Below are positions 27,972 through 56,449 of a stretch of DNA of 64,000 nucleotides, piece after piece. Under the pieces are notes generated by a model. The model was not told the origin of the DNA. It worked only from the letters and a program-made list of their open reading frames with translations, and did no database searches. The stretch covers positions 210,163 through 274,162 of the forward strand of contig CAVVBV010000029.1 in the NCBI GenBank assembly GCA_963746545.1, written 5' to 3'. Positions within the stretch are counted from its first letter, which is position 1. The number at the start of each line of letters is the position of its first letter. Origin of the DNA: an uncultured Gammaproteobacteria bacterium. GTDB taxonomy: Bacteria; Pseudomonadota; Gammaproteobacteria; Steroidobacterales; Steroidobacteraceae. Made by a program: the position numbers and the translations under genes.

Positions 27972-29579
27972 ATGGAAAGCATGACGCACCGCACCGCGCA
28001 CGCAGATTCATTCGCGCGCGACCGCCTGCCACCCATTGACCAATGGCCACGGCTGCATTTCGACCTGCCGGAACTGCGTTATCCGGAGCGCCTGAACTGC
28101 GCGACCGTGCTGCTGGATGACGCGATCGCCGAAGGCCATGGCGAACGGCCCGCGATCCTGACCGACGCCGGCAGCATCAGTTACCGGTCATTGCTCGCCC
28201 GCGCGAACCGCGTCGCAAACGTCCTGCAGGCCGCGGGCGTCGTGCCCGGCAACCGGGTGCTGCTGCGCGGCTACAACAGCCCCGAGCTCTACGCCTGCTG
28301 GCTCGGCGTGATGAAGGCGGGCGCGATCGCCGTGACGACCATGCCCCTGCTGAGGGCGCCCGAACTGACCGCGATCATTGTGAAGAGCCAGCCGGCGGTC
28401 GCCCTCTGCGACCACCGGTTGCTGGCCGAGTTGCGCGCGGCGGTCGAGGTGACGGGCATCGTCGGAGAAATCCTGGCCTGGGGCAATGGAGAGCTCGAGG
28501 ACCGGATGGCCGCAGTCCCGCAGCAGTTTGCGAACATCGACACCGCTTCGGACGACGTGTGCCTGCTCGCCTTCACTTCCGGCACGACCGGCCAGCCCAA
28601 GGCCTGCATGCATTTCCACCGCGACGTGCTGGCGATGGCCGACGTCGTCGCGCGCCACCTGCTGCACACGAAGCCGGACGATGTCTACGCCGGCAGCCCG
28701 CCGCTGGGCTTCACCTTCGGGCTCGGGGCGCTCCTGGTATTTCCCTTCCGATTCCGCGCAGCGGTCGCACCGGTCGAGGCGCCGGCGCCCGCGGCACTGC
28801 TCGCCACGATCGAGCGGCACAAGGTGACCTGTCTCTTCACGGCGCCCTTCGCCTACCGCGCACTGATGACCGAACTGGAGGGGCGCGACATCGGTTCGCT
28901 GCGCCAGTGCGTGTCCGCGGGAGAATTCCTGCCGAGCGCCGTCTCGGACGCCTGGAAGGAGCGCACCGGCATCCGGATCATCGACGGCATCGGCGCAACC
29001 GAGATGATCCACATTTTCATTTCGGCAGCCGGCGACGAGATCCGGCCGGGCGCGACGGGGAAGCCATTGCCCGGCTACACGGCCTGTGTGCTCGATGACG
29101 AAGGCCGACCGATGCCGGCCGGCAGCATCGGGCGCCTGGCCGTCACGGGACCGACCGGCTGCCGCTACCTGGACGACGAACGCCAGCGCGACTATGTGCA
29201 GTACGGCTGGAACCTGACCGGCGACCTGTACCGCGTGGACGAGGACGGCTATTTCTGGTTCGTCTCCCGCGCCGACGACATGATCGTCTCGGCCGGCTAC
29301 AACATCGCCGGTCTCGAGGTCGAATGGGCGCTCCTCGCCCATCCCGCAGTGCGCGAATGCGCGGTCGTCGGCGCTCCGGACGCCCTGCGCGGCACGGTCG
29401 TGAAGGCCTTTGTCGTGATCCAGCCGGGGAGGGCGGCGGACGAAGCGCTCGCGCGCGAGCTGCAGGAGTTCGTCAAGCAGCGCATAGCACCCTACAAGTA
29501 CCCGCGCCTGGTCGAGTTCCTCGAGGCGCTGCCGAAGACGCCGACGGGCAAGCTGCAGCGCAAGGCCCTGAGAAAATAA
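27972..29579 (+). CDS. 2-aminobenzoate/benzoate-CoA ligase-like AMP-dependent synthetase
   Basis: 535 aa. FTSGTTGQPKACMH adenylation motif, YRVDEDGYFWFVSRADDMI and a C-terminal PKTPTGKLQR. The neighbours are 2-aminobenzoyl-CoA pathway genes. An alternative start is ATG 27981. Confidence 0.75.
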   Translation: MESMTHRTAHADSFARDRLPPIDQWPRLHFDLPELRYPERLNCATVLLDDAIAEGHGERPAILTDAGSISYRSLLARANRVANVLQAAGVVPGNRVLLRGYNSPELYACWLGVMKAGAIAVTTMPLLRAPELTAIIVKSQPAVALCDHRLLAELRAAVEVTGIVGEILAWGNGELEDRMAAVPQQFANIDTASDDVCLLAFTSGTTGQPKACMHFHRDVLAMADVVARHLLHTKPDDVYAGSPPLGFTFGLGALLVFPFRFRAAVAPVEAPAPAALLATIERHKVTCLFTAPFAYRALMTELEGRDIGSLRQCVSAGEFLPSAVSDAWKERTGIRIIDGIGATEMIHIFISAAGDEIRPGATGKPLPGYTACVLDDEGRPMPAGSIGRLAVTGPTGCRYLDDERQRDYVQYGWNLTGDLYRVDEDGYFWFVSRADDMIVSAGYNIAGLEVEWALLAHPAVRECAVVGAPDALRGTVVKAFVVIQPGRAADEALARELQEFVKQRIAPYKYPRLVEFLEALPKTPTGKLQRKALRK

Positions 29580-29580
29580 G

Positions 29581-29639
29581 CTGTAATTCACGGTTTTCGC
29601 GCGATTACTTGACATATAAATGATATAGGCCTGTAATTC
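29581..29639 (+). promoter_or_regulatory. Sigma70-like promoter with flanking direct repeat CTGTAATTC (candidate MarR operator)
   Basis: TTGACA (29609-29614), a 17-nt spacer, then TGTAAT (29632-29637). The 9-mer CTGTAATTC occurs at 29581-29589 and 29631-29639, the second copy overlapping the -10. This is a locally AT-rich intergenic region. Confidence 0.45.
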
Positions 29640-29659
29640 TCCCGGCACTCGGGGGTCCC

Positions 29660-31944
29660 TTGAAGAGAATCGTCTGCCTGGGCGGCGGCCCTGCCGGCCT
29701 GTACTCGGCCATCCTGTTCAGGAAGACGCTGCCGCGCGCGCGGGTCGAGGTCTACGAGCGCAATCGCCCGGACGACACCTTCGGCTGGGGCGTCGTGTTC
29801 TCCGACCGGACCATGGAAGGGTTCCGCGTCGCCGATGCGCCGACCCACGAGGCGATCACGGCCGGCTTCCATCATTGGGACGACATCGACGTCCATTACC
29901 GCGGCACGACCATCACGCACGGGCGGCCACGGCTTCTGCGGCATCAGCCGCAAGCGCCTGCTGAACATCCTGCAGGAGAGGGCGGCCGGACTCGGCGTCC
30001 ACCAGAGTTTCGAGCACGAGGTCGAAGACGATGCGCCCTACGCGGACGCGGACCTCGTCATCGCCGCCGACGGTGTCAACAGCAGGACCCGCACGCCGCC
30101 ACGCGGCTGTCTTCGAGCCGGACATCGACGTGCGCCAGTGCCGCTTCATCTGGCTCGGCACGAAGCAGTCCTTCCCGGCCTTCACCTTCGCCTTCGAGAA
30201 GACCGAGCACGGCTGGTTCCAGATCCACGCCTACCAGTTCAGCAGCGATCTCTCGACCGTGATCGTCGAGACCCGCGAGGAGACCTGGCGCGCGCACGGG
30301 CTCGACAAGTTCGACCACAGGCAGTCGATCGCATTCTGCGAAAAGCTGTTCGGCAGGTATCTCGGCGGCCATCCGCTGATGAGCAACGCCTTGCACCTGC
30401 GCGGCTCGGCCTGGCTCAACTTCAACCGCGTGCGGTGCAAGCGCTGGCATCACCGCAACCTGGTGCTGATCGGCGACGCCGCGCACACGGCGCATTTCTC
30501 GATCGGCTCGGGCACGAAGCTTGCGATGGAGGACGCGATCGAGCTCACCGCGCGCGTCGCGCATGCGACCGACGTGCCGGCGGGCCTCGTGCGCTACCAG
30601 GAGGAGCGCTCGCTGGAGGCGCTGAAGCTGCAGAGCGCGGCGCGCAACCGGATGCGCTGGTTCGAGGAAGTCGCGCGCTACGTGAACTTCGAGCCCTGGC
30701 AGTTCACCTACAGCCTGCTGACCGGCAGCCAGCGCATCGGCCACGAGAACCTGCGGCTGCGCGACCCGGGTTTCGTGCGCGACGTCGAGACGAAGCTCGC
30801 GGCACAGGCGGGGGCGCCGTCGCCGCGGCCGCCGATGTTCCTGCCCTTCACGCTTCGCGGCATGAAGGTGGAGAACCGCGTCGTCGTCTCGCCGATGGCG
30901 CAGTACCTCGCGAAGGACGGCATGCCCGATGACTGGCACCTCGTGCATCTCGGCGCGCGCGCGACCGGCGGGGCGGGGCTCGTGTTCACCGAGATGACCT
31001 GCGTGTCGCCGGAAGGCCGCATTTCGCCCGGCTGCACGGGTCTCTGGAACGAGGCGCAGCGCGAAGCCTGGCGGCGCATCGTGGACTTCGTGCACGGTGC
31101 GAGCCCCGCGAAGATCTGCCTGCAGCTCGGGCATTCCGGCCGCAAGGGCTCGACGCAGCTCGGCTGGGAGGAATCCGATCATCCCTTGCCGTCCGGCAAC
31201 TGGGAGACGATCGCGCCGTCGGCCATACCTTATTACGAAGGCATCAGCGCGCCGCCACGTGCGATGACGCGCGCGGACATGGACAAGGTGCTCGCCGATT
31301 ACCTGCGCGCGACGCGCCATGGCGCCGAGGCAGGCTTCGACATGCTGGAACTGCACATGGCGCACGGTTACCTGCTGGCGAGTTTCCTGTCGCCGCTGAC
31401 CAACCGGCGCGCGGACGAATACGGCGGGGTGCTCGCTAATCGCCTGCGCTTCCCGCTGGAGATCCTCGCGGCCGTGCGCAAGGCCTGGCCGGCCGACAAG
31501 CCGCTCTCCGTGCGCCTGTCGGCGAGCGACTGGGCTGACGGCGGCCTGCGCGAGGAGGAGCTGCTCGACATCGCGCGCGCGATGAAGGCCGCCGGCGCCG
31601 ACGCCCTCGACCTGTCGAGCGGCCAGACCGTGCCCTGGCAGAAGCCGGTGTACGGGCGCATGTGGCAGACGCCGTTCTCGGACCAGGTCCGGAACCTCGT
31701 CGGCATCCCGACCATCGCGGTCGGCAACATCTACGAGCCGGATCACGTGAACTCGATCGTGGCCTCGGGTCGCGCGGATCTCTGCGCGCTCGCGCGGCCG
31801 CACCTGGCGGATGCGGCCTGGACGCTGCATGCCGCGGCCGCACAGGGCTATCGGGAGCAGTGGTGGCCGAAGCCCTACGAGACGGCGCGGCGCCAGCTCG
31901 AGCGCAATCTCGAGCGCGCAGCGCAGATGGCGGGGCCGGTCTGA
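29660..31944 (+). pseudogene. 2-aminobenzoyl-CoA monooxygenase/reductase-like flavoprotein (FAD monooxygenase plus OYE-type reductase) with two +1 frameshifts
   Basis: Piece 1: [15 protein letters not shown]...HYRGTTIT, to ~29922. Piece 2: [18 protein letters not shown]...ADGVNSRTR, to ~30095. Piece 3: [21 protein letters not shown]... continuing into the OYE-like C-terminal half, to 31944. Each break can be explained by one extra G or C. Confidence 0.7.
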
Positions 31945-34423: not shown

Positions 34424-34813
34424 TCCGCCAGACCCTGCAACCGCCGGGCTGGCCGAGGCCGCTCGGTTATGCCAATGGCATCGCCGCCGAGGGCCGGCAG
34501 GTCTTCATTTCCGGCCAGATCGGCTGGAATGCGGAGCAGAAATTTGCGAGCGACGAACTGGCCGCGCAGGTCCGCCAGGCGCTCGACGAATGTCGTCGAG
34601 GTGCTCGCCTGCGCCGGCGGGAGGCCGGAACAGCTCGTTCGCCTGACCTGGTACGTCACGAGCCGCGAGGAGTATTACGCCTCGATCGAGGGCATCGGCG
34701 CGGCCTATCGCGAGGTCATCGGCCGGCATTTCCCGGCGATGTCGGTCGTCGTCGTGGCGGGGCTCCTCGAGCCGCGCGCGAAAGTCGAGATCGAGGCGAC
34801 CGCGGTCCTGTAG
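34420..34813 (+). pseudogene. RidA/YjgF-family protein with one +1 frameshift
   Basis: [36 protein letters not shown]...VRQALD in one frame. After ~34588 it continues as NVVEVLACAGGRPEQLVRLTWYVTS...VEIEATAVL* in the next frame. Confidence 0.65.
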
Positions 34814-34828
34814 GAGCCTGCCAGCCTC

Positions 34829-36373
34829 TCAGGCCCGGTAGATTGCGCGCAGCTCGCGCTTCAGCAGCTTGCCATTGGGATTGCGCGGCAGTTTCGCGAC
34901 GCACTCGATGCGAGCGAGGCGTTGCTGCTTGCCCAGGCGCTCGTTAACCCAGCTGCGGATGGCCTCGCTGTCCATGTTCGCGTGGCCGGGTCGCAGCACG
35001 ACGAGCCCGAGCGGCGTCTCTCCCCATTTCTCGTGCGGAATGCCGATCACGCCGCAATCGAACACGGCCGGATGTTCCTTCAGCACCGCTTCGATGTCAG
35101 CCGGATAAATATTCTGGCCGCCTGACAGGATCATGTCCTTCTTGCGATCCACGATGTAGAGATAGCCCTCCTCGTCGACACGCCCCAGGTCGCCGGTGCG
35201 AAGCCATTGCCTTCCCTGCTGGTCCCGCCACAGCGTTTCCGCGGTCGCCTCCGGCCGGTTGTGATAGCCGCTCATGACGAAGCGCGACCAGCCCACGATC
35301 TCGCCAACCGCGTCGGGTGGCAATTCATGGCCCGCGTCGTCGATGATCGCGAGATCCGTACCCGGGATTGGCTTGCCGACCGAAGCCGTGCGGCTCTCGA
35401 CATCCTCCGGATCCAGCGTCGTGATGATGCCCTCGGTAAGGCCATAGAGTTCGATCAGGCCGCAGCCGAATTGCCGTGCGACACGCCGCTTGAGCGCGGG
35501 ATGCATTGGCGAGCCGACCGTGCAGAGCCAGCGCAGCGAACGCAGGTCATGGCGCGCAAAGTCCGATTGCTCGACGATCAACTGGAACTGCAGCGGCACC
35601 ATCGCCGCATGCGTGCAGCGATGGCGCTCGACGAGAGCGAGGAATTCCGCCGCGTCGAAATGCTCCATGACGACGATCGCGCCGCCGACCAGGAAGCTGC
35701 AGAGCATCGCGACCCAGCTGATGTTGGAGAATAGCCCGACCGGGCACAGCGCGATCGCGGCCGAGTCGTAGCGCAGCGCGAGCCCCACGTCGTAGGCCCA
35801 TTCGATGCGCCGGCGATGCGAGTGCACGATGCCCTTTGGCATGGCCGTCGTGCCCGAGCTGTAGATGATGTTGCAGGGATCGTCGGGTTGCGGCACGACC
35901 GTGCAGCGTCCGGCATGCGCGGCGTCGCGCCAGGCCGCGTAATCGGTCCAGCCCGCGCCGCCGTCCACGCAGATCCAGGCGCCATCCGCGACCTGCGGCA
36001 GGCGTGAACGCATCGACTCCAGCCGCGCGCGCTGCGCGGGCGTCGCGACGATGACGCCCACGCCCGCATCGCGCAGCATCCGTTCGACGCCGTCGTCCGA
36101 CACCGAGAGATTCAATGGCACGACGCAGGCGCCGGCCTTCATCACGCCGAACAGCACCTCGACCATCGGGATGCCGTTGTTCATCAGCACGCCGACGGTA
36201 TCGCCGCGACCGGCCCCCAGCCGCACAAGCGCATTCGCGACGCGTTCGGTATTTCGGTCTAACTCTGCCCACGAAAGCGTCGTGGCGCCGCAGATGAGCG
36301 CCGGGCTGTTGCGCCGCCAGCGCGCGTTGAGGCGCAGGATGTCCGAAATGAGCGGCGCGGGTGCGGGGATCAC
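34829..36373 (-). CDS. AMP-dependent acyl-CoA synthetase/ligase
   Basis: The start is set at GTG 36373 (VIPAPAPLISDILRLNARW...), giving 514 aa. Motifs IIYSSGTTAMPKGIVHSH, WLRTGDLG and PRNPNGKLLKREL. The upstream part of track ORF 34829..36535 is Arg-rich junk. Confidence 0.75.
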   Translation of the reverse strand: MIPAPAPLISDILRLNARWRRNSPALICGATTLSWAELDRNTERVANALVRLGAGRGDTVGVLMNNGIPMVEVLFGVMKAGACVVPLNLSVSDDGVERMLRDAGVGVIVATPAQRARLESMRSRLPQVADGAWICVDGGAGWTDYAAWRDAAHAGRCTVVPQPDDPCNIIYSSGTTAMPKGIVHSHRRRIEWAYDVGLALRYDSAAIALCPVGLFSNISWVAMLCSFLVGGAIVVMEHFDAAEFLALVERHRCTHAAMVPLQFQLIVEQSDFARHDLRSLRWLCTVGSPMHPALKRRVARQFGCGLIELYGLTEGIITTLDPEDVESRTASVGKPIPGTDLAIIDDAGHELPPDAVGEIVGWSRFVMSGYHNRPEATAETLWRDQQGRQWLRTGDLGRVDEEGYLYIVDRKKDMILSGGQNIYPADIEAVLKEHPAVFDCGVIGIPHEKWGETPLGLVVLRPGHANMDSEAIRSWVNERLGKQQRLARIECVAKLPRNPNGKLLKRELRAIYRA

Positions 36374-36606
36374 GGGGTGGCCTTGCCCAGGCCGCGGCGA
36401 ATGTGACGAATGCCGTGTTCGGCATCCGCGGCGGCGGCGCCGATGCCGCTTCCGACCCCGGTGATGAGGATGTTGCGTTCTTGCAAGACGCCCCCTGCGC
36501 TTGACAGTAACGCCCGGTGAACCGGGCGGCCTCATACGTTAGTACTATTCACGCGGTACTACTCGATGGCCGACAGTTCGCTGCAGACTCGCCTGGGGAT
36601 CCTGAA

Positions 36607-36827
36607 ATGAAGCACCGGAAATTGGCGGGCGCGAAGCCCATGGCCGCGTTACTCGCGGCGGCCGTCGCCGTTCCGGCGGCGGGCGCGCAGCCGGCGAAAT
36701 CGTCGGACGACCGAATCCGGAGGGTCTTCGACGGCCCGATGACGACTTGTTGAGCGCCGGGCTTGGGGTGGAGGGGCTGCGCGGGCCCGCGCCGGGATTT
36801 GCCGATCCGGCGAAGCCCACGGCCTGA
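36607..36827 (+). pseudogene. N-terminal ~70-codon fragment of a 3-hydroxybutyrate-oligomer-hydrolase-like secreted protein, frameshifted and truncated
   Basis: Signal peptide MKHRKLAGAKPMAALLAAAVAVPAAGA...RRVFDG. After a -1 shift (~36735) it reads DDDLLSAGLGVEGLRGPAPGFADPAKPTA*, which resembles the conserved N-terminal DDLLTAGLG block of that ~700-aa family. The sequence ends exactly at the AT-island border. Confidence 0.45.
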
Positions 36828-37636
36828 ATTTATTTTATATATACTGATTTGCAGCGCAATAAAAATTTTGAACGGTGATGCTATAATATGTTTTAATGAA
36901 TGCAGACTTAATTAAATATAGTTGAAATTGTACATTATAGTGTAGCTGGTTGGGCAATATTGATGAAGATCTGCTACGGGAGACAGTATGTAGATGATCG
37001 GTGCGATAGCTGGTTCTCATTGTTGACATGCATAATATCTGTGATATTCGCGCTTGATTATTTAATTTTATTTAATAAAATTAATTAATATTAAATTTAA
37101 TTTTTTTATTTTTTTTTAAATTATAATTTAAAGCGTTGCGCTGATCGTAATATAATAATTTATTATTATAATTTATATTATTTTATATGATTTTTATAAT
37201 TATATTTTGATAAATATTGTAATGATTATTAATTACGATGACGAGGTTAAGATAGACTGGATGATAATAATATTATTAATATTATTATATTTTGATCGGT
37301 TGGCTCTGGTTGCATGCATGTTCATTCGCGCACGCGCTGCATGCGATCGATTCTACACGCATATGTTCCGAGTCGGCATCAGTACTTCGAATCTATTGCT
37401 ATTTCTCTCTCCCATGCAGACAAAGCGGCGCTGATCATTTTATAAATTTTTATATTATATATTATTAAATATATTATTAATTTATTAATAATATAAATAT
37501 ATATAATTTAATATATTAAATATAATATTATTATATTTATTATAAATTAAATATTATATATTATTATTATTTTATTTAAATATATTAATATATTTATATT
37601 TATTTATATCTGCGCTTGCGTGCTTTGTTATTAATC
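36828..37636. other. Extreme A+T-rich, largely non-coding island
   Basis: The composition flips relative to the flanks. There are G/C-free runs at 37057-37132 (76 nt), 37148-37188 (41 nt) and 37437-37609 (173 nt). Short GC-normal patches are interspersed. There is no convincing ORF, tRNA or transposase. Confidence 0.9.
36996..37436 (+). repeat. Two degenerate tandem copies of the 5' region of the downstream DoxX-like gene, each followed by an A/T-only spacer
   Basis: Copy 2 (37294-37436) shares collinear identical words with the gene copy (37633-37780): TCGCGCACGC, TCTACACGC, TCCGAGTCGGC, CAGTACTTCGAATC and GCATGTTCAT. Copy 1 (36996-37056 plus 37130-37146) shares GATCGGT, CTGGTT, CATGCAT, ATTCGCGC and the tail AAAGCG..GCGCTGATC. 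The period is about 290-345 nt. Confidence 0.6.
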
Positions 37637-37638
37637 GG

Positions 37639-38130
37639 GTGGCACTGGGCTGCATGTTCATCGCGCACGCCCTGCTGAAATGCGTCGTCTACACGCTGTC
37701 CGAGTCGGCCCAGTACTTCGAATCGCTCGGCATTCCGGGCTGGCGCATCGTGGGAGTTGATTATTGCTGTGCTGGTGTATTGCACATCTGGGTACTACGG
37801 AGATGGCAGCGGAGTGTTGGATTTGGACTTACGTCGCACGATATGCTGTTATGCTATTCCAGGTTGCTCGCGAATCTCGTCGGCATATCCGGGCTAGCAT
37901 CGCTGTCGCCTACGTCGTCACGATTCGTCGAGATCGTCGGTGGCACGGCTGGTGCTCGGCATCGTCACGCTGGGCTGCCCGCCGCTGCTGCCGGTGCTCC
38001 TGGGAACGCGTGGGTGCACTCGGAATGGCGGCTCTTCACCTCTCCGAATGGAAGGCTGGGAATGTTCTGGAGCCTGGGCGCGGCGACGTTCGGGCTCGTG
38101 GCGGGCTCGCAATTCGGGCGGCGCTCACTG
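37639..38130 (+). pseudogene. DoxX-family membrane protein remnant with multiple frame disruptions
   Basis: DoxX-like segments are scattered over three frames: VALGCMFIAHALLKCVVYTLSESAQYFESLGIPGW, ASIAVAYVVTI, VEIVGG, ARLVLGIVTLG.PPLLPVLLGT, WVHSEW.LFTSPNG, GWE and FWSLGAATFGLVAG. The middle part (about 37740-37900) is visibly AT-enriched. The 3' limit is approximate. Confidence 0.5.
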
Positions 38131-40088
38131 ATCGAGCGCGTGCAGGCCAACTCGTTCGTCGAGGCGCAGGCGGCAGGCGGTGCGCCGGGCGTGTGGGCGC
38201 CCGCACAGGAGCTGACCGTCAAGGAACTGCGCCCGCTGGTGGAACGATTCATCGGCAGCAACCGCGCGGCGCGGCATTTCGCGGATCTCGGCTGGCGGGG
38301 CGGCGAGGACGCGCGCGCGAGCGCCCAGCAGCTCGAGGCGACGCAGAAGCTGCTCGCATCGGTCCTGGGCGCGTCATCCGCGCAGCGCCTCGTGGACGTG
38401 GCTGTCGCCGGGCGCGAGGTGCCGCTCGAGGACGTCGTGTCGATCGTCGACGAGGCCTCGCAGGCGCTCGAGTTCAGCCATGAACTGTTGCAGTCGTCAT
38501 TGGAAAACGTCAGTCAGGGCATCAGCGTGGTCGACGCGGAGCTGCGGCTCGTCGCATGGAATCGCCGATACGCCGAGTTCTACAGGTACCCGCCAGGTTT
38601 CCTGCGCATTGGCCAGCCGATCGAGGAATTGCTGCGTTGCAACGCGGAGCGCGGCGAACTGGGACCTGGCGACACGGACGAGCTCGTCGCGCGACGGCTT
38701 GGCCATCTGCAACGCGGCACCCCCTATACTTTCCAGCGCACGCGCCTCGACGGCACCGTGCTCGAGATCCGCGGCAATCCGATGCCCGGCGGGGGTTTCG
38801 TCACGAGCTTTGCGGACGTCACCGAGTACAAGCGTGCGGAAGAGGCGCTCCGGGTCGCGAACGAGTCACTCGAGCAGCGCGTGCGCGAACGCACGCGGGC
38901 GCTGTCCGCGATGAACGACGAATTGCTGGCGGCGAAAGCGGAGGCCGAACGCGCGAATGCCGGCAAGACGCGCTTCCTGGCCGCCGCTGGCCACGACCTG
39001 ATGCAGCCGCTCAACGCCGCGGGCCTGTTTGCCGGCGCGCTCGCGCAGAAAAGCCGGGGCGCGGAACAGCGTGCGCTGCTCGCCGACCTCGAGGAATGCC
39101 TGCATTCCGCCGAGGGCCTGATCTCCGACCTGCTGGACATTTCGCGGCTCGACACCGGCGCGATGCGGACGCAGGTCATGGACGTGCCACTCGCCAGCGT
39201 CTTCGATGCGCTCGACGCCGAGTTCCGCCTGACGGCCGGCAAGAGGCGCATTGCGCTCGCGGTCCACAGGAGCCGCGCGATCGTGCATTCAGATCCGAAA
39301 TTGCTGCGGCGCGTGCTGCAGAACTTCGTTGGCAACGCGCTGCGCTACACGCCCGCCGGGCGCGTGGTCGTCGGCGTGCGGCGCCGCGGCGGGCGCGTTC
39401 GTGTCGAAGTTTGGGATACCGGCATCGGCATCACCCCGGAGCAGCAGCCGCATGTATTCGAGGAGTTCTACCGCGGCAGCGGCCGGCGCGACGCTGATGA
39501 CACGCGCGGCTTCGGTCTCGGACTCGCGATGCTGAGCTCATTGCGTGCGTGCTCGGGCATGCGGTCGGATTGCGCTCGACGCCCGGCCGCGGCTCGGTCT
39601 TCTGGATCGAAGTCGAACGTGGCCAGACAACCGCACCGGTCGCCATTCCCGAGCCGCGCCAGCGCCCGACGGGTGCGCTGGCCGGCATCCGCGTGTTGTG
39701 CATCGACAACGACTCGGCGGCGCTCAGGGGCCTTGCCACATTGCTGAATTCCTGGGGCTGCGAAACGCTCGCGGCGCCGGGCATCGAGGACCTGGTTGAG
39801 CACCGGCGCCTGCAGGGCTTCCGGCCGCATGTCATCGTCGTGGACTACCATCTCGAAGGCGGCGTCACGGGACTCGATGTCGTACAGCATCTGCGCGCGG
39901 TCGAAGGCATTCGTGCGCCGGTGCTCGCGGTGTCGGCGGACGCGAGCGATTCCGTGCGCGCGGAGGCAGAGGCATTGGATTGCGTGTTCCTGCGCAAGCC
40001 CCTGAAGCCGCTCGCGGTGCGTAGCGCGCTTGCGCGACTGCTGGAAACTGCCCGGCCCGCCGCCAGTGACGACGCGGCGGCCTTGTGA
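38131..40088 (+). pseudogene. Hybrid sensor histidine kinase/response regulator (PAS-HisKA-HATPase-REC), apparently lacking its N-terminal sensor/membrane module, with a -1 frameshift
   Basis: PAS-like ...VSQGISVVDAELRLVAWNRRYAEFYRYPPG...EIRGNPMPGGGFVTSFADVTEYKRAEEAL. H-box FLAAAGHDLMQPLN, N-box NFVGNALRYTP, G1 VWDTGIGI, G2 GFGLGLA. The frame breaks at ~39529. It then continues AELIACVLGHAVGLRSTPGRGSVFWIEV plus a REC domain (VVDYHL...LRKPLKP). There is no own start codon or RBS; it is in frame with the DoxX remnant. The 5' limit is approximate. Confidence 0.6.
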
Positions 40089-40151
40089 CCCGAGAATCGA
40101 TTCGTGACGCCCAAACCGGCAACTGCCGCTGCGAGCGCCCGTCCCCGGGCG

Positions 40152-40808
40152 TTAACGCGCAGGCGACTGACCGGGATCGGCGATTTCGAGTTCGCGGAAC
40201 ACGAGTGAAGCCTGGGTCCGGTTGCGCACGCCGAGCTTCGCGAGCGCGGCGGAGACATGCGCCTTGACGGTCGTCTCCTCGATCGAGAGCTCGGCGGCAA
40301 TCTGCTTGTTGAGACGGCCGAGCGCGACCAGTTCAAGCACGCGGTATTGCTGCGGCGTCAGGCTGTTGAACCGCGCTGCGAGCAGTTCCTTGCCCTCGGC
40401 CGGGCGGCGCGCGGAGAGCGCGGTGCCGGGCGGGAACCACTGGCCGCAATGCGCCACCGTGCGGATTGCCGTGATCAGATCGACCTGCGCGACCGACTTG
40501 GGGACATAGCCGGCGGCGCCAAATGTCCGCGCCTGGGCGATCACGTCCGGATCCTCGTTGGCCGAGACGATCATCACTGCCGTTCCCGGGAACTGATTCC
40601 GCAGCCACGCGAGCGGTGCAAAACTCTTCGCACCCGGCATCAGCAGGTCGAGCAGCACGAGGTCGGGTTCCGGCAGGGCGCTTGCTGCCGCGCGCAGCGA
40701 ATCGACGTCGTGAGCCTCGGTCGTCTCGGCGTCCGGCACGGCCTGAAAAGAGCGCCGGCGTAACGCGGCCCGGAACAACGGATGGTCGTCCGCGATGAGA
40801 ACCCGCAT
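40152..40808 (-). CDS. LuxR/FixJ (NarL-type) response regulator
   Basis: 218 aa. REC domain MRVLIADDHPLFR...LVLLDLLMPG and a C-terminal HTH LTPQQYRVLELVALGRLNKQIAAELSIEETTVKAHVS. Confidence 0.85.
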   Translation of the reverse strand: MRVLIADDHPLFRAALRRRSFQAVPDAETTEAHDVDSLRAAASALPEPDLVLLDLLMPGAKSFAPLAWLRNQFPGTAVMIVSANEDPDVIAQARTFGAAGYVPKSVAQVDLITAIRTVAHCGQWFPPGTALSARRPAEGKELLAARFNSLTPQQYRVLELVALGRLNKQIAAELSIEETTVKAHVSAALAKLGVRNRTQASLVFRELEIADPGQSPAR

Positions 40809-40817
40809 GCGCGTATC

Positions 40818-41702
40818 TTAGAGCGCCGTGCGCGAAATCACATCGCAGACGGCCGCGATCGCTGCGCCGCGCGTCGTCGAGCGGCGCCAGGCGGCGCCGA
40901 TCACGCGCGACGGCGAGGGCGGCGCAAACGGCCGCACGACCAGTCCGCGCGCGGCCGCGAACGGGCCTTCGGCGGAGAGCCGCGGCAACAGCGTGAGGCC
41001 GAGTCCCGCCGCGACCATCTGCCGCAGCGTCTCGAGGCTGGTCGCGCCGAAATCCTGCTCCTCCGTTCCCACCCTGCGGCAGACCTCGAGCGCCTGGTCG
41101 CGCAGGCAATGGCCGTCCTCGAGCAGCAGCAGTTTCTCGCCCGCGAGATCGGCGGGCTTCAGCCGGCGACGTGCCGCCAGGCGGTGACGCTCCGGCATCG
41201 CGACGAGGAAAGCCTCCGCGAACAGCGATCGCGTTTCGAGCCCCTGCGTGTCTGCGGGCAGCGCCAGCAACGCGAGATCGAGCTCCCCGTCCCTGACGCG
41301 CGCGAGCAGCGGCTCGGTCTGGTGCTCGTGCAGCAGCAGTTGCAGCTTCGGCAGCGCGCGCTGCAGGCGCGGCGCAACGCGCGGCAGCAGGTAGGGCCCG
41401 AGCGTCGGGATCAGGCCGATCTTGAGCTGTCCGCCCAGCGGATCCTGGCTGGCGCGGGCGAGGGCGCGGATGTCCTCGGCGTCGCGCAGCATGCGCCGCG
41501 CGCGCTCGACCACCGCGACGCCGGCCGCCGTCAGCGCGACATCCCGCGGCCGGCGCTCGATCAGCGTGACGCCGAGGTATTCCTCCAGCTTCTTCAGCTG
41601 GGCGGACAGCGTCGGCTGGCTGACATGGCATTTTCGCGCGGCGCGGCCGAAATGCCGGGTTTCTGCCAGCGCCACGAGATATTGAAGATCGCGGAGGTTC
41701 AA
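40818..41702 (-). CDS. oxyR: LysR-family hydrogen-peroxide sensor OxyR
   Basis: 294 aa from TTG 41702: (M)NLRDLQYLVALAETRHFGRAARKCHVSQPTLSAQLKKLE. Redox cysteine pair in LLEDGHCLRDQALEVC with OxyR-type spacing. The upstream part of the 478-aa track ORF was dropped. Confidence 0.8.
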   Translation of the reverse strand: MNLRDLQYLVALAETRHFGRAARKCHVSQPTLSAQLKKLEEYLGVTLIERRPRDVALTAAGVAVVERARRMLRDAEDIRALARASQDPLGGQLKIGLIPTLGPYLLPRVAPRLQRALPKLQLLLHEHQTEPLLARVRDGELDLALLALPADTQGLETRSLFAEAFLVAMPERHRLAARRRLKPADLAGEKLLLLEDGHCLRDQALEVCRRVGTEEQDFGATSLETLRQMVAAGLGLTLLPRLSAEGPFAAARGLVVRPFAPPSPSRVIGAAWRRSTTRGAAIAAVCDVISRTAL

Positions 41703-55516: not shown

Positions 55517-55603
55517 AGCCCGGGGCAGGGAAGAAACCCCGGCCCTCCAGCGTCCTTGCTTCTGAGAGCCGCGGATGGTCCGCGGCGAAACAGGAGAAAG
55601 GCC

Positions 55604-56449
55604 ATGAAAATCAAACGTTTACTGTTCAGCGCCGCAGTCAATGCCGTGCTGTCGATGAGTTCGGTGGCCTATGCCCAGGTGCTGGGCGGCGGCGTCACCG
55701 GGGGCTTGGGCGGCTCGATCACGGGCGGCCTCGGCAACATCGGCGCGACCGGCAATGGCGCGATCAACGGCACCCTGGGCGCGGGCTCTGACGCGCTCGA
55801 CCGTACTCGCGATGCGGGCTCGCGCATTCGCAACAAGGGCGAGCAGACGGCGGCGAGTGCGCACGAGCGTGCGAGCTCAGCGGCTGCTTCGACGACGGCG
55901 ACGGCTTCGGGCGCGCTCGGCGCGACGGCGGATTCCGCTGCCGAAGCCACCAATGCCGCCTCAGCGAGCGCCGAAGCCGCAGGTAATGCGGGCTCCGACG
56001 TGACCGTTCCGAGCGGCGACCCGGCGAGCGAGGCCCCAATGCTGGACTTCTCGGGCCAGGGCAATGGCAGCGGCTCGGGCATGCTCGACCTGGGTGCGAA
56101 CCAGGCGGGGCAGCCGGCCGAAGTCGTTGACCACCCGCAGCCGTCACGGGCGCAACCCGAAGGCGGGCGCGGCGAACGGCAACAGAAGCCGGTCCACGGC
56201 TCGCCCACCGGAGCCGTTGGCCATGCGCTGATGCAGGGCCAGGGCTCGGGCAGTGCAGAGGCTTCACGCGGCGAGCCGGCGTTTGACGAACAGTCAGGCT
56301 CCGACCAGCCGCGGCAGAGCAAGCCCCGCGCGAAAGCCAAGGCCGACGGAAAGGCCAATGCAGGCGCCGACTTGCAGTCCGACGGCAATGGCAAGGCCAC
56401 GGCCAATGCCAACGCCTCCGCGGACGCGCAGGCCTCGGTCGATAAGTAA
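55604..56449 (+). CDS. Secreted low-complexity Gly/Ala/Ser/Asn-rich protein
   Basis: 281 aa from ATG 55604, preceded by CAGGAGAAAGG. Signal peptide MKIKRLLFSAAVNAVLSMSSVAYA and Gly-rich repeats GGGVTGGLGGSITGGLGNIGATGNG. No family recognised. Confidence 0.5.
   Translation: MKIKRLLFSAAVNAVLSMSSVAYAQVLGGGVTGGLGGSITGGLGNIGATGNGAINGTLGAGSDALDRTRDAGSRIRNKGEQTAASAHERASSAAASTTATASGALGATADSAAEATNAASASAEAAGNAGSDVTVPSGDPASEAPMLDFSGQGNGSGSGMLDLGANQAGQPAEVVDHPQPSRAQPEGGRGERQQKPVHGSPTGAVGHALMQGQGSGSAEASRGEPAFDEQSGSDQPRQSKPRAKAKADGKANAGADLQSDGNGKATANANASADAQASVDK

What the first reader, a model, noticed from the sequence alone, without database searches (positions are those of the whole stretch)
36828..37636. 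About 0.8-kb island of nearly pure A+T in a GC-rich chromosome, flanked by truncated genes
This is the sharpest compositional discontinuity in the window. There is no plausible gene, tRNA, integrase or transposase, no terminal inverted repeats, and no cluster of DnaA boxes. The usual explanations (genomic island, IS element, origin) therefore do not fit. Both neighbours are broken, and the island contains diverged copies of adjacent sequence, so it looks locally generated rather than imported. Possible roles or origins are:
- a scar of an illegitimate recombination event followed by slippage-driven expansion of A/T-rich seeds;
- a nucleation site for an H-NS/MvaT-like silencer;
- an easily melted or bent structural element;
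- an assembly chimera.
I do not know of a described bacterial element with this structure.
Basis: seen in the sequence. Interest (0 to 1): 0.8.

Follow-up and report, generated by a model that had tools for sequence, protein, structure and literature searches.

The report
Garbled assembly patch, not an element
The nearly pure A+T island really is in the deposited sequence, but it is most likely a 1.2-kb patch of junk, low-fidelity sequence in a metagenome assembly that replaces about 8 kb of normal genes, not a biological element.

Summary
Positions 36828-37640 have 24% GC in a 68% GC window and hold four runs with no G or C (76, 41, 30 and 173 nt). Both neighbouring genes are truncated.

The anomaly is larger than reported: it spans 36824-38065. 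Five related assemblies carry an intact conserved block here: ACS2, 3-hydroxybutyrate-oligomer hydrolase, esterase, TonB receptor, transporter, CrbS-like kinase and response regulator. The window matches the closest of them up to hydrolase codon 73 and again from kinase codon ~495. In that relative these two points are 8,188 bp apart.

The 1,242 bp in between contain at least three noisy passes over the 5' part of one gene, DoxX, separated by A/T filler.
- The DoxX pieces carry 7.5-17.6 indels per 100 nt, against 0-0.3 in neighbouring genes.
- The A/T runs are not alignable to each other.
- The truncated kinase shows no decay.
- A sister assembly has raw-read-like indel noise in the same block.

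DoxX is the gene that occupies this locus in relatives that lack the block, so the patch sits at a structural polymorphism.

Best explanation, with confidence about 0.83: an unpolished or garbled long-read assembly artefact. Interest is low. Raw reads were not available, so this is not proven.

The parts
34829..36380 (-). ACS2, an AMP-binding acyl-CoA synthetase. It is intact and forms the left end of the conserved block.
   Evidence: P0197 is 514 aa and 100% identical. It is 98.3% nt identical to contig_15373 with 0 indels.
36607..36823 (+). 5' fragment (codons 1-73) of the 3-hydroxybutyrate-oligomer hydrolase (3HBOH). Sequence quality decays over the last ~210 nt.
   Evidence: Homology to relatives stops at 36823/36824. 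There are three frame-breaking indels at 36695, 36714 and 36736. Identity to contig_15373 falls from 97-99% to 94% and then 91%.
36824..36944 (.). A/T-rich filler (GC 10-35%) with no identifiable source.
   Evidence: No significant match to DoxX, RidA or OxyR sequence of the relative L081 on either strand, to other window sequence or five related loci, or to plasmids or phages.
36945..37058 (+). Islet containing G/C. It may be a very noisy pass over the DoxX 3' part (about nt 239-368).
   Evidence: Weak local alignments with z 3.3-5.2 against shuffles. This assignment is uncertain.
37057..37132 (.). A/T-only run of 76 nt.
   Evidence: It does not align to the other A/T runs (z 1.45 and 0.59).
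37130..37146 (+). Noisy DoxX nt 19-33 (AAAGCGTTGCGCTGATCG, coding ~DKAALI). This is the start of pass 1.
   Evidence: z 7-9.
37148..37292 (.). A/T-rich filler that includes pure A/T runs of 41 and 30 nt.
   Evidence: It does not align to the 173-nt run (z -1.14).
37293..37430 (+). Copy B, a noisy pass over DoxX nt 29-169.
   Evidence: z 13.9. It has 13.5 indel events per 100 nt against the L081 DoxX gene. Against copy A in the window, all 12 inserted bases are A/T.
37411..37437 (+). Clean DoxX nt 8-34 (CATGCAGACAAAGCGGCGCTGATCA, coding HADKAALI). This is the start of pass 2.
   Evidence: 100% identical to L081 DoxX over 27 nt, z 20-21.
37437..37609 (.). A/T-only run of 173 nt, inserted between DoxX nt ~34 and nt ~22.
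37618..37752 (+). Copy A, the cleanest pass over DoxX nt 22-159.
   Evidence: Pfam DoxX at 25.5 bits, above the gathering score of 23.6. z 27. 92.2% identical to L081 DoxX. 1.6 indels per 100 nt.
37767..37894 (+). Copy C, a third and very noisy pass over DoxX nt ~46-168.
   Evidence: 17.6 indel events per 100 nt.
37860..38058 (+). DoxX body, nt 112-309 (to about codon 103 of 132), full of 1-2-nt indels.
   Evidence: 7.5 indel events per 100 nt, none a multiple of 3. The last 68 nt are 91% identical to L081.
38059..40088 (+). 3' 58% of the CrbS-like hybrid sensor kinase (codon ~495 to the end), with a 1-nt deletion frameshift at ~39531.
   Evidence: 94.4% identical to contig_15373, and the only indel is the one at 39531. 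It has not decayed relative to its neighbours.
40152..40808 (-). LuxR-type response regulator, the right end of the conserved block.
   Evidence: P0162. 98.8% nt identical to contig_15373.

Best explanation
Positions 36824-38065 are a technical artefact. They are a patch of low-fidelity sequence that survived assembly and polishing of a long-read metagenome, and they do not faithfully copy any DNA in the organism.

The patch sits at a locus that is structurally polymorphic among close relatives. Between RidA and OxyR, some genomes carry only the 399-nt DoxX gene. Others carry a ~14-kb block: ACS2, hydrolase, esterase, TonB receptor, transporter, CrbS kinase and response regulator.

In the deposited contig the two ends of the block are present and clean. 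Its 8.2-kb interior is replaced by stuttered, indel-ridden passes over the DoxX 5' region, interspersed with basecaller-type or junk A/T-only filler.

Shown here:
- the exact breakpoints;
- the intact interior in relatives;
- the stutter map;
- the indel spectrum;
- the lack of homology among the A/T runs;
- the lack of decay in the gene remnants;
- comparable noise in a sister assembly.

Inferred, not shown:
- that the platform is a long-read one, Nanopore with Flye-type assembly;
- that a single noisy or chimeric read, or a failed polishing bubble caused by mixed haplotypes, produced the patch.
For: 1. Five related assemblies carry the full block with every gene intact: the closest, contig_15373 (L167/L168), plus contig_23724 (L169), L170, L171 and L003. 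The hydrolase is 675-680 aa and CrbS 1166-1168 aa where complete.

2. The window matches contig_15373 up to 36823 and again from 38066. In the relative these two points are 8,188 bp apart.

3. Indel density, measured against the DoxX gene of the close relative L081:
- DoxX body: 7.5 per 100 nt;
- copy B: 13.5 per 100 nt;
- copy C: 17.6 per 100 nt;
- five neighbouring genes aligned the same way: 0-0.3 per 100 nt.
Nearly all of these indels are not multiples of 3, while mismatches rise only modestly. Copy B differs from copy A by 10 indel events and 5 substitutions, and all 12 inserted bases are A/T.

4. The same DoxX 5' region is traversed at least three times (nt 29-169, 22-159 and 46-309). 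Each time the A/T filler at the same template position is different, and the fillers are not alignable (z 1.45, 0.59, -1.14).

5. The truncated kinase is as conserved as its intact neighbours. The kinase is 81% identical to L001 and L002, which are 85% identical to each other. The response regulator is 80% against 85%, and OxyR is 80-81% against 79%. The remnant is 94-100% identical to contig_15373 with no extra indels. So the truncation is either extremely recent or not real.

6. Agreement with contig_15373 decays only in the last ~210 nt left of the island: 5 indels in 216 nt against 1 in the preceding 1,800 nt.

7. The window has at least 8 single-base frameshifts at non-homopolymer sites in genes that are intact in relatives. 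Five lie within about 7 kb of the island, and a sixth shift sits inside the hydrolase fragment itself.

8. The sister assembly L172 has the same ENA accession series and the same 'contig_N' naming. In the same block interior it has 103, 32 and 13 indel events in the receptor, hydrolase and esterase genes, but 0-2 in backbone genes.

9. The one genuine low-GC spacer seen in this group, shared by two independent assemblies, bottoms out at GC 0.29-0.30 and has no A/T-only run of 20 nt or more.

10. Window proteins are in public databases only from one 329,714-bp contig.

11. Published work describes junk low-complexity reads, glitches, chimeras and error-prone Flye disjointigs (PMC6966772), and basecaller-induced replacement of true sequence by other repeats (PMC9414165).
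Against: - No raw reads, coverage or quality values were available, so the artefact is inferred from sequence alone.
- I could not establish the sequencing platform or assembler of the window's own assembly. The link to a Nanopore/metaFlye project (PMC12313526) rests on sister-assembly naming and accession proximity only.
- Outside the patch the contig is of decent quality, with 0 indels in about 9.8 kb of other collinear genes. A single junk read would therefore have had to escape polishing locally.
- I know of no documented case that reproduces this exact signature of 100% A/T runs plus a threefold stutter.
- The gene inside the patch is exactly the one allelic to the block, and the two breakpoints keep order and orientation. 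That points to a real structural relationship and not a random chimera.
- L172's noisy patch contains no A/T-only runs.
Confidence: 0.83

Rival explanations
1. The architecture is real but the sequence is garbled. A recipient with the RidA-DoxX-OxyR arrangement acquired only the two ends of the block, through two homology-facilitated illegitimate recombination events. The homologous anchors were in RidA and in the OxyR 3' end. The illegitimate joins were hydrolase codon 73 to the region upstream of DoxX, and DoxX nt ~309 to CrbS codon ~495. The resident DoxX was left between them. The A/T runs, the stutter and the indels would then be poor consensus laid over a true structural variant.
For: - The backbone is L081-like (92-93% identical) while the block ends are contig_15373-like (98-100% identical).
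- The switch points lie at the RidA stop and about 50-100 nt inside the OxyR 3' end, as expected for homologous anchors.
- The gene inside is the one resident at this locus in genomes that lack the block.
- That gene shows the divergence expected of the window's own lineage: 92% to L081 and 86% to L086, against 92.6% and 88.8% for RidA.
- HFIR is an established mechanism (PMC3240628).
Against: - It needs two independent illegitimate joins.
- The DoxX|CrbS junction has at most 1 nt of microhomology.
- No relative shows this architecture.
- A mixed population of genomes with and without the block would give the same mosaic through assembly alone.
- It still needs a technical artefact to explain the island's content.
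Confidence: 0.1
2. The sequence is entirely real. A very recent in vivo deletion or rearrangement was repaired with filler DNA made by iterative, error-prone, template-switching synthesis on DoxX plus untemplated A/T addition.
For: - The junctions are abrupt and keep order and orientation.
- The remnants have not decayed, which fits a very recent event.
- The repeated passes restart at similar template positions.
Against: - No known bacterial process gives 7-18 indels per 100 nt with few substitutions.
- None is known to add 173 nt of pure A/T in a 68% GC genome.
- The fillers are unrelated between units that otherwise look duplicated.
- The flank quality decay and the frameshifts nearby point to data quality.
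- A sister assembly shows similar noise in the same block without any rearrangement.
Confidence: 0.04
3. The island is a functional A/T-rich element in vivo: a nucleation site for an H-NS/MvaT-type silencer, a bent or easily melted structural element, or a replication origin.
For: Only the extreme A+T content.
Against: - It is not conserved and is absent from all relatives at this locus.
- It sits inside broken genes.
- There are no DnaA boxes, no GC-skew switch and no RNA or tRNA.
- The A/T runs are unrelated to each other.
Confidence: 0.01
4. The island is a chimera with foreign A/T-rich DNA, for example eukaryotic, organellar, phage or plasmid DNA.
For: The composition resembles A/T-rich eukaryotic or organellar spacers.
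Against: - The G/C-containing parts derive from the lineage's own DoxX.
- There is no match to plasmids or phages.
- There is no organellar or other RNA family.
- No eukaryotic database was available, so the pure A/T runs could not be tested against one.
Confidence: 0.02

Closest known systems
Long-read assembly artefacts: junk (low-complexity) reads, read glitches, chimeric reads, and unpolished Flye 'disjointig' sequence (Wick & Holt, PMC6966772). Also basecaller-induced repeat miscalls (PMC9414165).
   Same: - The errors are dominated by indels.
- The filler is low-complexity with no homologue.
- There is a local break in continuity that replaces true sequence.
- The patch is confined to one assembly.
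- The flanks carry residual single-base indels.
- A sister assembly shows a raw-read-like patch in the same block.
   Different: - I found no published description of this exact signature of 100% A/T runs up to 173 nt plus a threefold re-reading of one ~150-nt template.
- The platform of this assembly is not established.
- The patch keeps the order and orientation of the flanks, and it contains the allelic gene. A random chimera would not do that.
Homology-facilitated illegitimate recombination (HFIR) junctions (PMC3240628)
   Same: - Donor-like sequence abuts recipient-like backbone, with switch points in or next to homologous flanks.
- The illegitimate joins fall inside genes.
- Resident DNA is retained next to the acquired DNA.
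   Different: - Two such events would be needed.
- The microhomology is at most 1 nt.
- HFIR does not create A/T-only filler, stuttered copies or dense indels.
Xenogeneic, H-NS/MvaT/Lsr2-silenced AT-rich islands in GC-rich bacteria
   Same: A+T content is locally raised relative to the genome.
   Different: - By my general knowledge, those islands are gene-bearing, kilobases long, typically 10-20 GC points below the genome, and shared between strains.
- This one has no genes and reaches 0% GC.
- It is made of noisy copies of a local gene.
- It is absent from every relative.
Pseudogene or deletion scars in decaying genomes
   Same: Genes are truncated and frameshifted, and about 8 kb is missing relative to relatives.
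   Different: - By my general knowledge, natural decay is dominated by substitutions. Here indels outnumber substitutions about 2:1 between the copies.
- The remnants show no excess divergence.

Membership tests
Long-read assembly junk or unpolished patch | Error spectrum dominated by small indels at raw-read-like density, against normal density in the flanks | tested here: met
   7.5-17.6 indel events per 100 nt in the DoxX pieces, against 0-0.3 in five neighbouring genes aligned to the same relative.
Long-read assembly junk or unpolished patch | Low-complexity filler with no homologue, not reproducible between repeated units | tested here: met
   A/T-only runs of 76, 41, 30 and 173 nt. Pairwise z scores of 1.45, 0.59 and -1.14. 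No database match.
Long-read assembly junk or unpolished patch | True sequence is present in independent assemblies of close relatives, and the patch is unique to one assembly | tested here: met
   The interior is intact in L003, L167/L168, L169, L170 and L171. Window proteins come only from the single 329,714-bp contig.
Long-read assembly junk or unpolished patch | Little or no read support, low base quality, and clipped reads at the patch borders | not testable with these tools
   No reads, coverage or quality values were available.
Long-read assembly junk or unpolished patch | The assembly was produced from error-prone long reads | tested here: inconclusive
   Indirect evidence only:
- non-homopolymer single-base frameshifts;
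- sister assemblies named contig_N in one ENA accession series, one of them with heavy indel noise;
- no accession link to a project was found.
Genomic island or xenogeneic AT-rich island | Carries genes, often next to a tRNA with an integrase, and is shared with some strains | tested here: not met
   No credible ORF, no tRNA and no integrase. It is absent from all relatives.
IS element, transposon or MITE | Terminal inverted repeats, target-site duplication, transposase | tested here: not met
   Only low-complexity A/T inverted repeats. No transposase ORF. The flanks are not contiguous in relatives but 8.2 kb apart.
Replication origin or DNA-unwinding element | DnaA-box cluster, GC-skew switch, neighbouring dnaA/dnaN or rep gene | tested here: not met
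   Three near-consensus boxes in the whole 64 kb (expected by chance 2.4), none within 7 kb of the island. The cumulative GC skew shows no switch.
Natural pseudogene decay or old deletion scar | Remnants diverge faster than intact neighbours, and changes are mostly substitutions | tested here: not met
   The kinase remnant is as conserved as the response regulator and OxyR. It is 94-100% identical to contig_15373. Indels outnumber substitutions between the copies.
HFIR recombinant junction | One homologous anchor per event | tested here: met
   The donor-like to backbone-like switch falls at the RidA stop, and between 40866 and 40914 inside OxyR.
HFIR recombinant junction | Short microhomology at the illegitimate join | tested here: not met
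   At most 1 nt at DoxX|CrbS. The hydrolase|filler junction has no identifiable partner.
RIP-like or deaminase hypermutation of a duplicate | Differences between the copies are overwhelmingly C-to-T / G-to-A transitions, without indels | tested here: not met
   Copy B differs from copy A by 10 indel events and 5 substitutions.

The most novel reading that the evidence does not exclude
The deposited sequence is correct. In that case a soil gammaproteobacterium (Steroidobacteraceae-like) very recently lost 8.2 kb inside a horizontally exchanged 14-kb block. The break was sealed with filler DNA made by repeated, highly error-prone template-switching synthesis on the resident DoxX gene, plus long untemplated A/T tracts. 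That would be a bacterial end-joining or 'stutter-fill' repair outcome with no described precedent.
Probability: 0.04. Interest if true: 0.75.

Novelty: not a real feature. Interest (0 to 1): 0.1.

Why it matters
The main value is as a data-quality finding.
- The patch has already put false objects into public protein collections. One is the 561-aa 'kinase' P0001, which starts at an internal Met and carries a frameshifted tail. Several neighbouring genes are also frameshifted.
- It shows how compositional outliers in metagenome-assembled genomes can look like exotic elements.
- It offers a sequence-only test for such cases: indel density against a close relative, whether the fillers are homologous to each other, and whether the gene remnants have decayed.
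- The locus does carry some real biology. A ~14-kb module (ACS2, 3HB-oligomer hydrolase, esterase, TonB receptor, transporter, CrbS-type kinase, response regulator) alternates with DoxX between RidA and OxyR in close relatives. It is near-identical between genomes whose backbones differ by 10-15%.

If the island were real, it would point to an undescribed repair process.

Tried and rejected
- I first read the locus as Burkholderia-like. The relatives are Steroidobacteraceae and other gammaproteobacterial MAGs.
- I considered that the whole window might be synthetic or model-generated. I rejected this because exact proteins are in NCBI/ENA on a 329,714-bp contig.
- I considered that 37620-38000 was decayed CrbS N-terminus. 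It is DoxX.
- Exact-protein context look-ups for the window's own contig returned nothing.
- BLAST of the island's G/C-containing stretches against the window and five related loci found no other source.
- Rfam, tRNA, DnaA-box, plasmid and phage searches were negative.
- Supplementary tables and full-text searches could not link the ENA accessions to a publication.
- I considered polishing with block-less reads across a 14-kb gap as the cause. I judged it mechanistically unlikely, because such reads lack ACS2 and the hydrolase 5' end, but I could not test it.
- Homopolymer-type error was rejected: the frameshifts are at non-homopolymer sites.

Full report
OBSERVATION

The window is uniformly GC-rich: 500-nt windows range from 0.61 to 0.75. 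The exception is 36.8-37.9 kb. There is no tRNA, no Rfam family, no credible ORF, no DnaA box within 7 kb, and only low-complexity inverted repeats.

WHAT FLANKS THE ISLAND

The window's proteins occur in public data only on one 329,714-bp NCBI/ENA contig. It is therefore a real deposit.

Relatives fetched through flanking proteins give two arrangements of this locus.
- Type I (L081-L086): FAD-monooxygenase/OYE, MarR, ECH, ACAD, RidA, DoxX (132 aa), OxyR(-). L081 is a close relative, 92-94% nt identical and collinear on both sides.
- Type II: ACS2(-), 3HB-oligomer hydrolase (675-680 aa), esterase (not seen in L003), TonB receptor, transporter, CrbS-type kinase (1166-1168 aa), response regulator(-). 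In contig_15373 (L167/L168) and L171 this block is seen to lie between RidA and OxyR in place of DoxX. L001-L003, contig_23724 (L169) and L170 show the block or part of it. All genes are intact and no DoxX is present.

The window has the two ends of the type II block.
- It matches contig_15373 continuously up to 36823, which is hydrolase codon 73.
- It matches again from 38066, which is kinase codon ~495.
- In the relative these points are 8,188 bp apart.

The anomaly is therefore 36824-38065, 1,242 bp, not just the A/T-rich part.

ANATOMY OF THE PATCH

Everything identifiable in it derives from DoxX (Pfam hit above the gathering score; 132-aa homologues). Local alignment to the L081 DoxX gene, with shuffled controls, gives this stutter map:

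| Window positions | Content |
|---|---|
| 36945-37058 | possibly DoxX nt ~239-368 (weak, z 3-5) |
| 37057-37132 | A/T-only run, 76 nt |
| 37130-37146 | DoxX nt 19-33 |
| 37148-37292 | A/T filler |
| 37293-37430 | DoxX nt 29-169 (copy B) |
| 37411-37437 | DoxX nt 8-34, 100% identical to L081 |
| 37437-37609 | A/T-only run, 173 nt |
| 37618-37752 | DoxX nt 22-159 (copy A) |
| 37767-37894 | DoxX nt ~46-168 (copy C) |
| 37860-38058 | DoxX nt 112-309 |
| from 38059-38066 | abrupt join to CrbS, with at most 1 nt of microhomology |

The stretch 36824-36944 matches nothing.

WHY THIS IS NOT FAITHFUL SEQUENCE

1. Indel spectrum. Five neighbouring genes, aligned the same way to the same relative, show 0-0.3 indel events per 100 nt. 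The DoxX pieces show 1.6 (copy A), 7.5 (body), 13.5 (copy B) and 17.6 (copy C). Almost none are multiples of 3, and mismatches rise only modestly. Copy B differs from copy A by 10 indel events and 5 substitutions, and all 12 inserted bases are A/T. By my general knowledge, natural divergence and pseudogene decay are dominated by substitutions.

2. Unrelated fillers. The A/T fillers occupy the same template position in successive passes, yet they are not alignable to one another (z 1.45, 0.59, -1.14). The 'units' are therefore not a duplication of one real sequence.

3. No decay in the remnants. The kinase is 81% identical to L001/L002, which are 85% identical to each other. The response regulator is 80% against 85%, and OxyR is 80-81% against 79%. 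Against contig_15373 the kinase remnant is 94.4% identical with no indel other than the frameshift at 39531.

4. Flank quality. Agreement with contig_15373 is 97-99% for 1.8 kb on the left. It then drops to 94% and 91%, with 5 indels in the last 216 nt before the patch.

5. Frameshifts in neighbouring genes. The window carries at least 8 single-base frameshifts at non-homopolymer sites, in genes that are intact in L081 and contig_15373. The affected genes are a DUF4139-like gene (two), FAD/OYE (two), ACAD, RidA, the kinase and an S8 peptidase. Five of the shifts lie within about 7 kb of the patch, and the hydrolase fragment itself carries a further shift.

6. A sister assembly shows the same kind of noise. 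L172 is contig_3299 of ERZ25039597, from the same ENA accession series and with the same contig_N naming as L167-L169. In the interior of the same block it has 103, 32 and 13 indel events in the receptor, hydrolase and esterase genes. Its backbone genes have 0-2. Raw-read-like patches therefore occur in this family of assemblies, at this very block.

7. A control for real low-GC DNA. L169 and L170 are independent assemblies. They share a low-GC spacer that reaches only GC 0.29-0.30 and has no A/T-only run of 20 nt or more.

WHY DOXX, AND WHY HERE

DoxX is the gene allelic to the block at this locus. The window's clean DoxX pieces are 92% identical to L081 and 86% to L086. That is the same as RidA, at 92.6% and 88.8%, so they come from a genome of the window's own lineage.

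The window is also a mosaic. Its backbone is L081-like. The block ends are 98-100% identical to contig_15373, whose backbone is only 85-91% identical to the window. The switch points lie at the RidA stop and 50-100 nt inside the OxyR 3' end.

Two readings fit this.
- Haplotypes with and without the block co-occur in the sample, and the assembler produced an unpolished, garbled path at the structural polymorphism.
- A real recombinant carries both block ends around the resident DoxX, formed by homology-facilitated illegitimate recombination (PMC3240628), and poor consensus is laid over it.

I cannot separate these two without reads. In both, the A/T island itself is technical.

LITERATURE

- Long-read sets contain junk (low-complexity) reads, chimeras and glitches, and Flye builds error-prone disjointigs before polishing (PMC6966772).
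- Basecallers can replace true repeats with other repeats (PMC9414165).
- A large Nanopore soil and sediment MAG project used metaFlye plus one round of Medaka polishing (PMC12313526). A link between that project and this window is plausible but unproven.

VERDICT

- Best explanation: technical artefact, confidence about 0.83.
- Real architecture with garbled consensus: about 0.10.
- Fully real filler-DNA scar: about 0.04.
- Foreign-DNA chimera: about 0.02.
- Functional A/T-rich element: about 0.01.

Novelty: not a real feature. Interest: 0.1.

Read mapping or PCR across 36.4-38.3 kb would be decisive.

Noticed in passing
window 34812-40818; L081 9966-10428; L168; L171: The locus between RidA and OxyR is structurally polymorphic among close relatives. 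It holds either DoxX alone (399 nt) or a ~14-kb block: ACS2, 3HB-oligomer hydrolase, esterase, TonB receptor, transporter, CrbS-like SSF-PAS-HK-REC kinase and LuxR-type regulator. By gene content this looks like a module for sensing and using 3-hydroxybutyrate oligomers.
   Followed up: partly
window 34815-36614 and 39566-40815, against L167/L168: The block ends are 98-100% nt identical to contig_15373, although the backbones of the two genomes are only 85-91% identical. The window's backbone is closest (92-93%) to L081, which lacks the block. This suggests either recent horizontal exchange of the block or chimeric assembly of two co-occurring populations. The switch points are at ~34813 and between 40866 and 40914.
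   Followed up: partly
window ~23038, 23636, 29915, 30096, 34333, 34586, 36695/36714/36736, 39531, 54381: Single-base frameshifts at non-homopolymer sites break genes that are intact in relatives where an orthologue was compared. The affected genes are a DUF4139-like gene, FAD-monooxygenase/OYE, ACAD, RidA, the hydrolase fragment, the kinase and an S8 peptidase. Several of the resulting mis-called proteins are in public databases.
   Followed up: yes
window 38366-39565: Inside the kinase remnant, identity to contig_15373 drops to 87-96% with no indels, then returns to 99-100%. This looks like a natural recombination mosaic and not like noise.
   Followed up: no
L172 143-9102 (ENA ERZ25039597 contig_3299): In this sister assembly the interior of the same block is shattered by non-3n indels, up to 4.9 per 100 nt in the TonB receptor gene. 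The backbone genes are clean.
   Followed up: yes
L169 12651-12841 and L170 10451-10631: A low-GC spacer (minimum GC about 0.29-0.30) between an HxlR-type regulator gene and a GST gene. It is reproduced in two independent assemblies and is presumably a regulatory region.
   Followed up: no
window 55556-56449 (+): A 297-aa ORF with a signal-peptide-like N-terminus and a long low-complexity region rich in Gly, Ala and Ser. It lacks the usual codon-position GC pattern and lies downstream of the frameshifted S8 peptidase gene.
   Followed up: no
window 29541-29681: A short low-GC intergenic stretch (minimum GC 0.43) between ACS1 and the FAD-monooxygenase/OYE gene, probably a promoter region.
   Followed up: no
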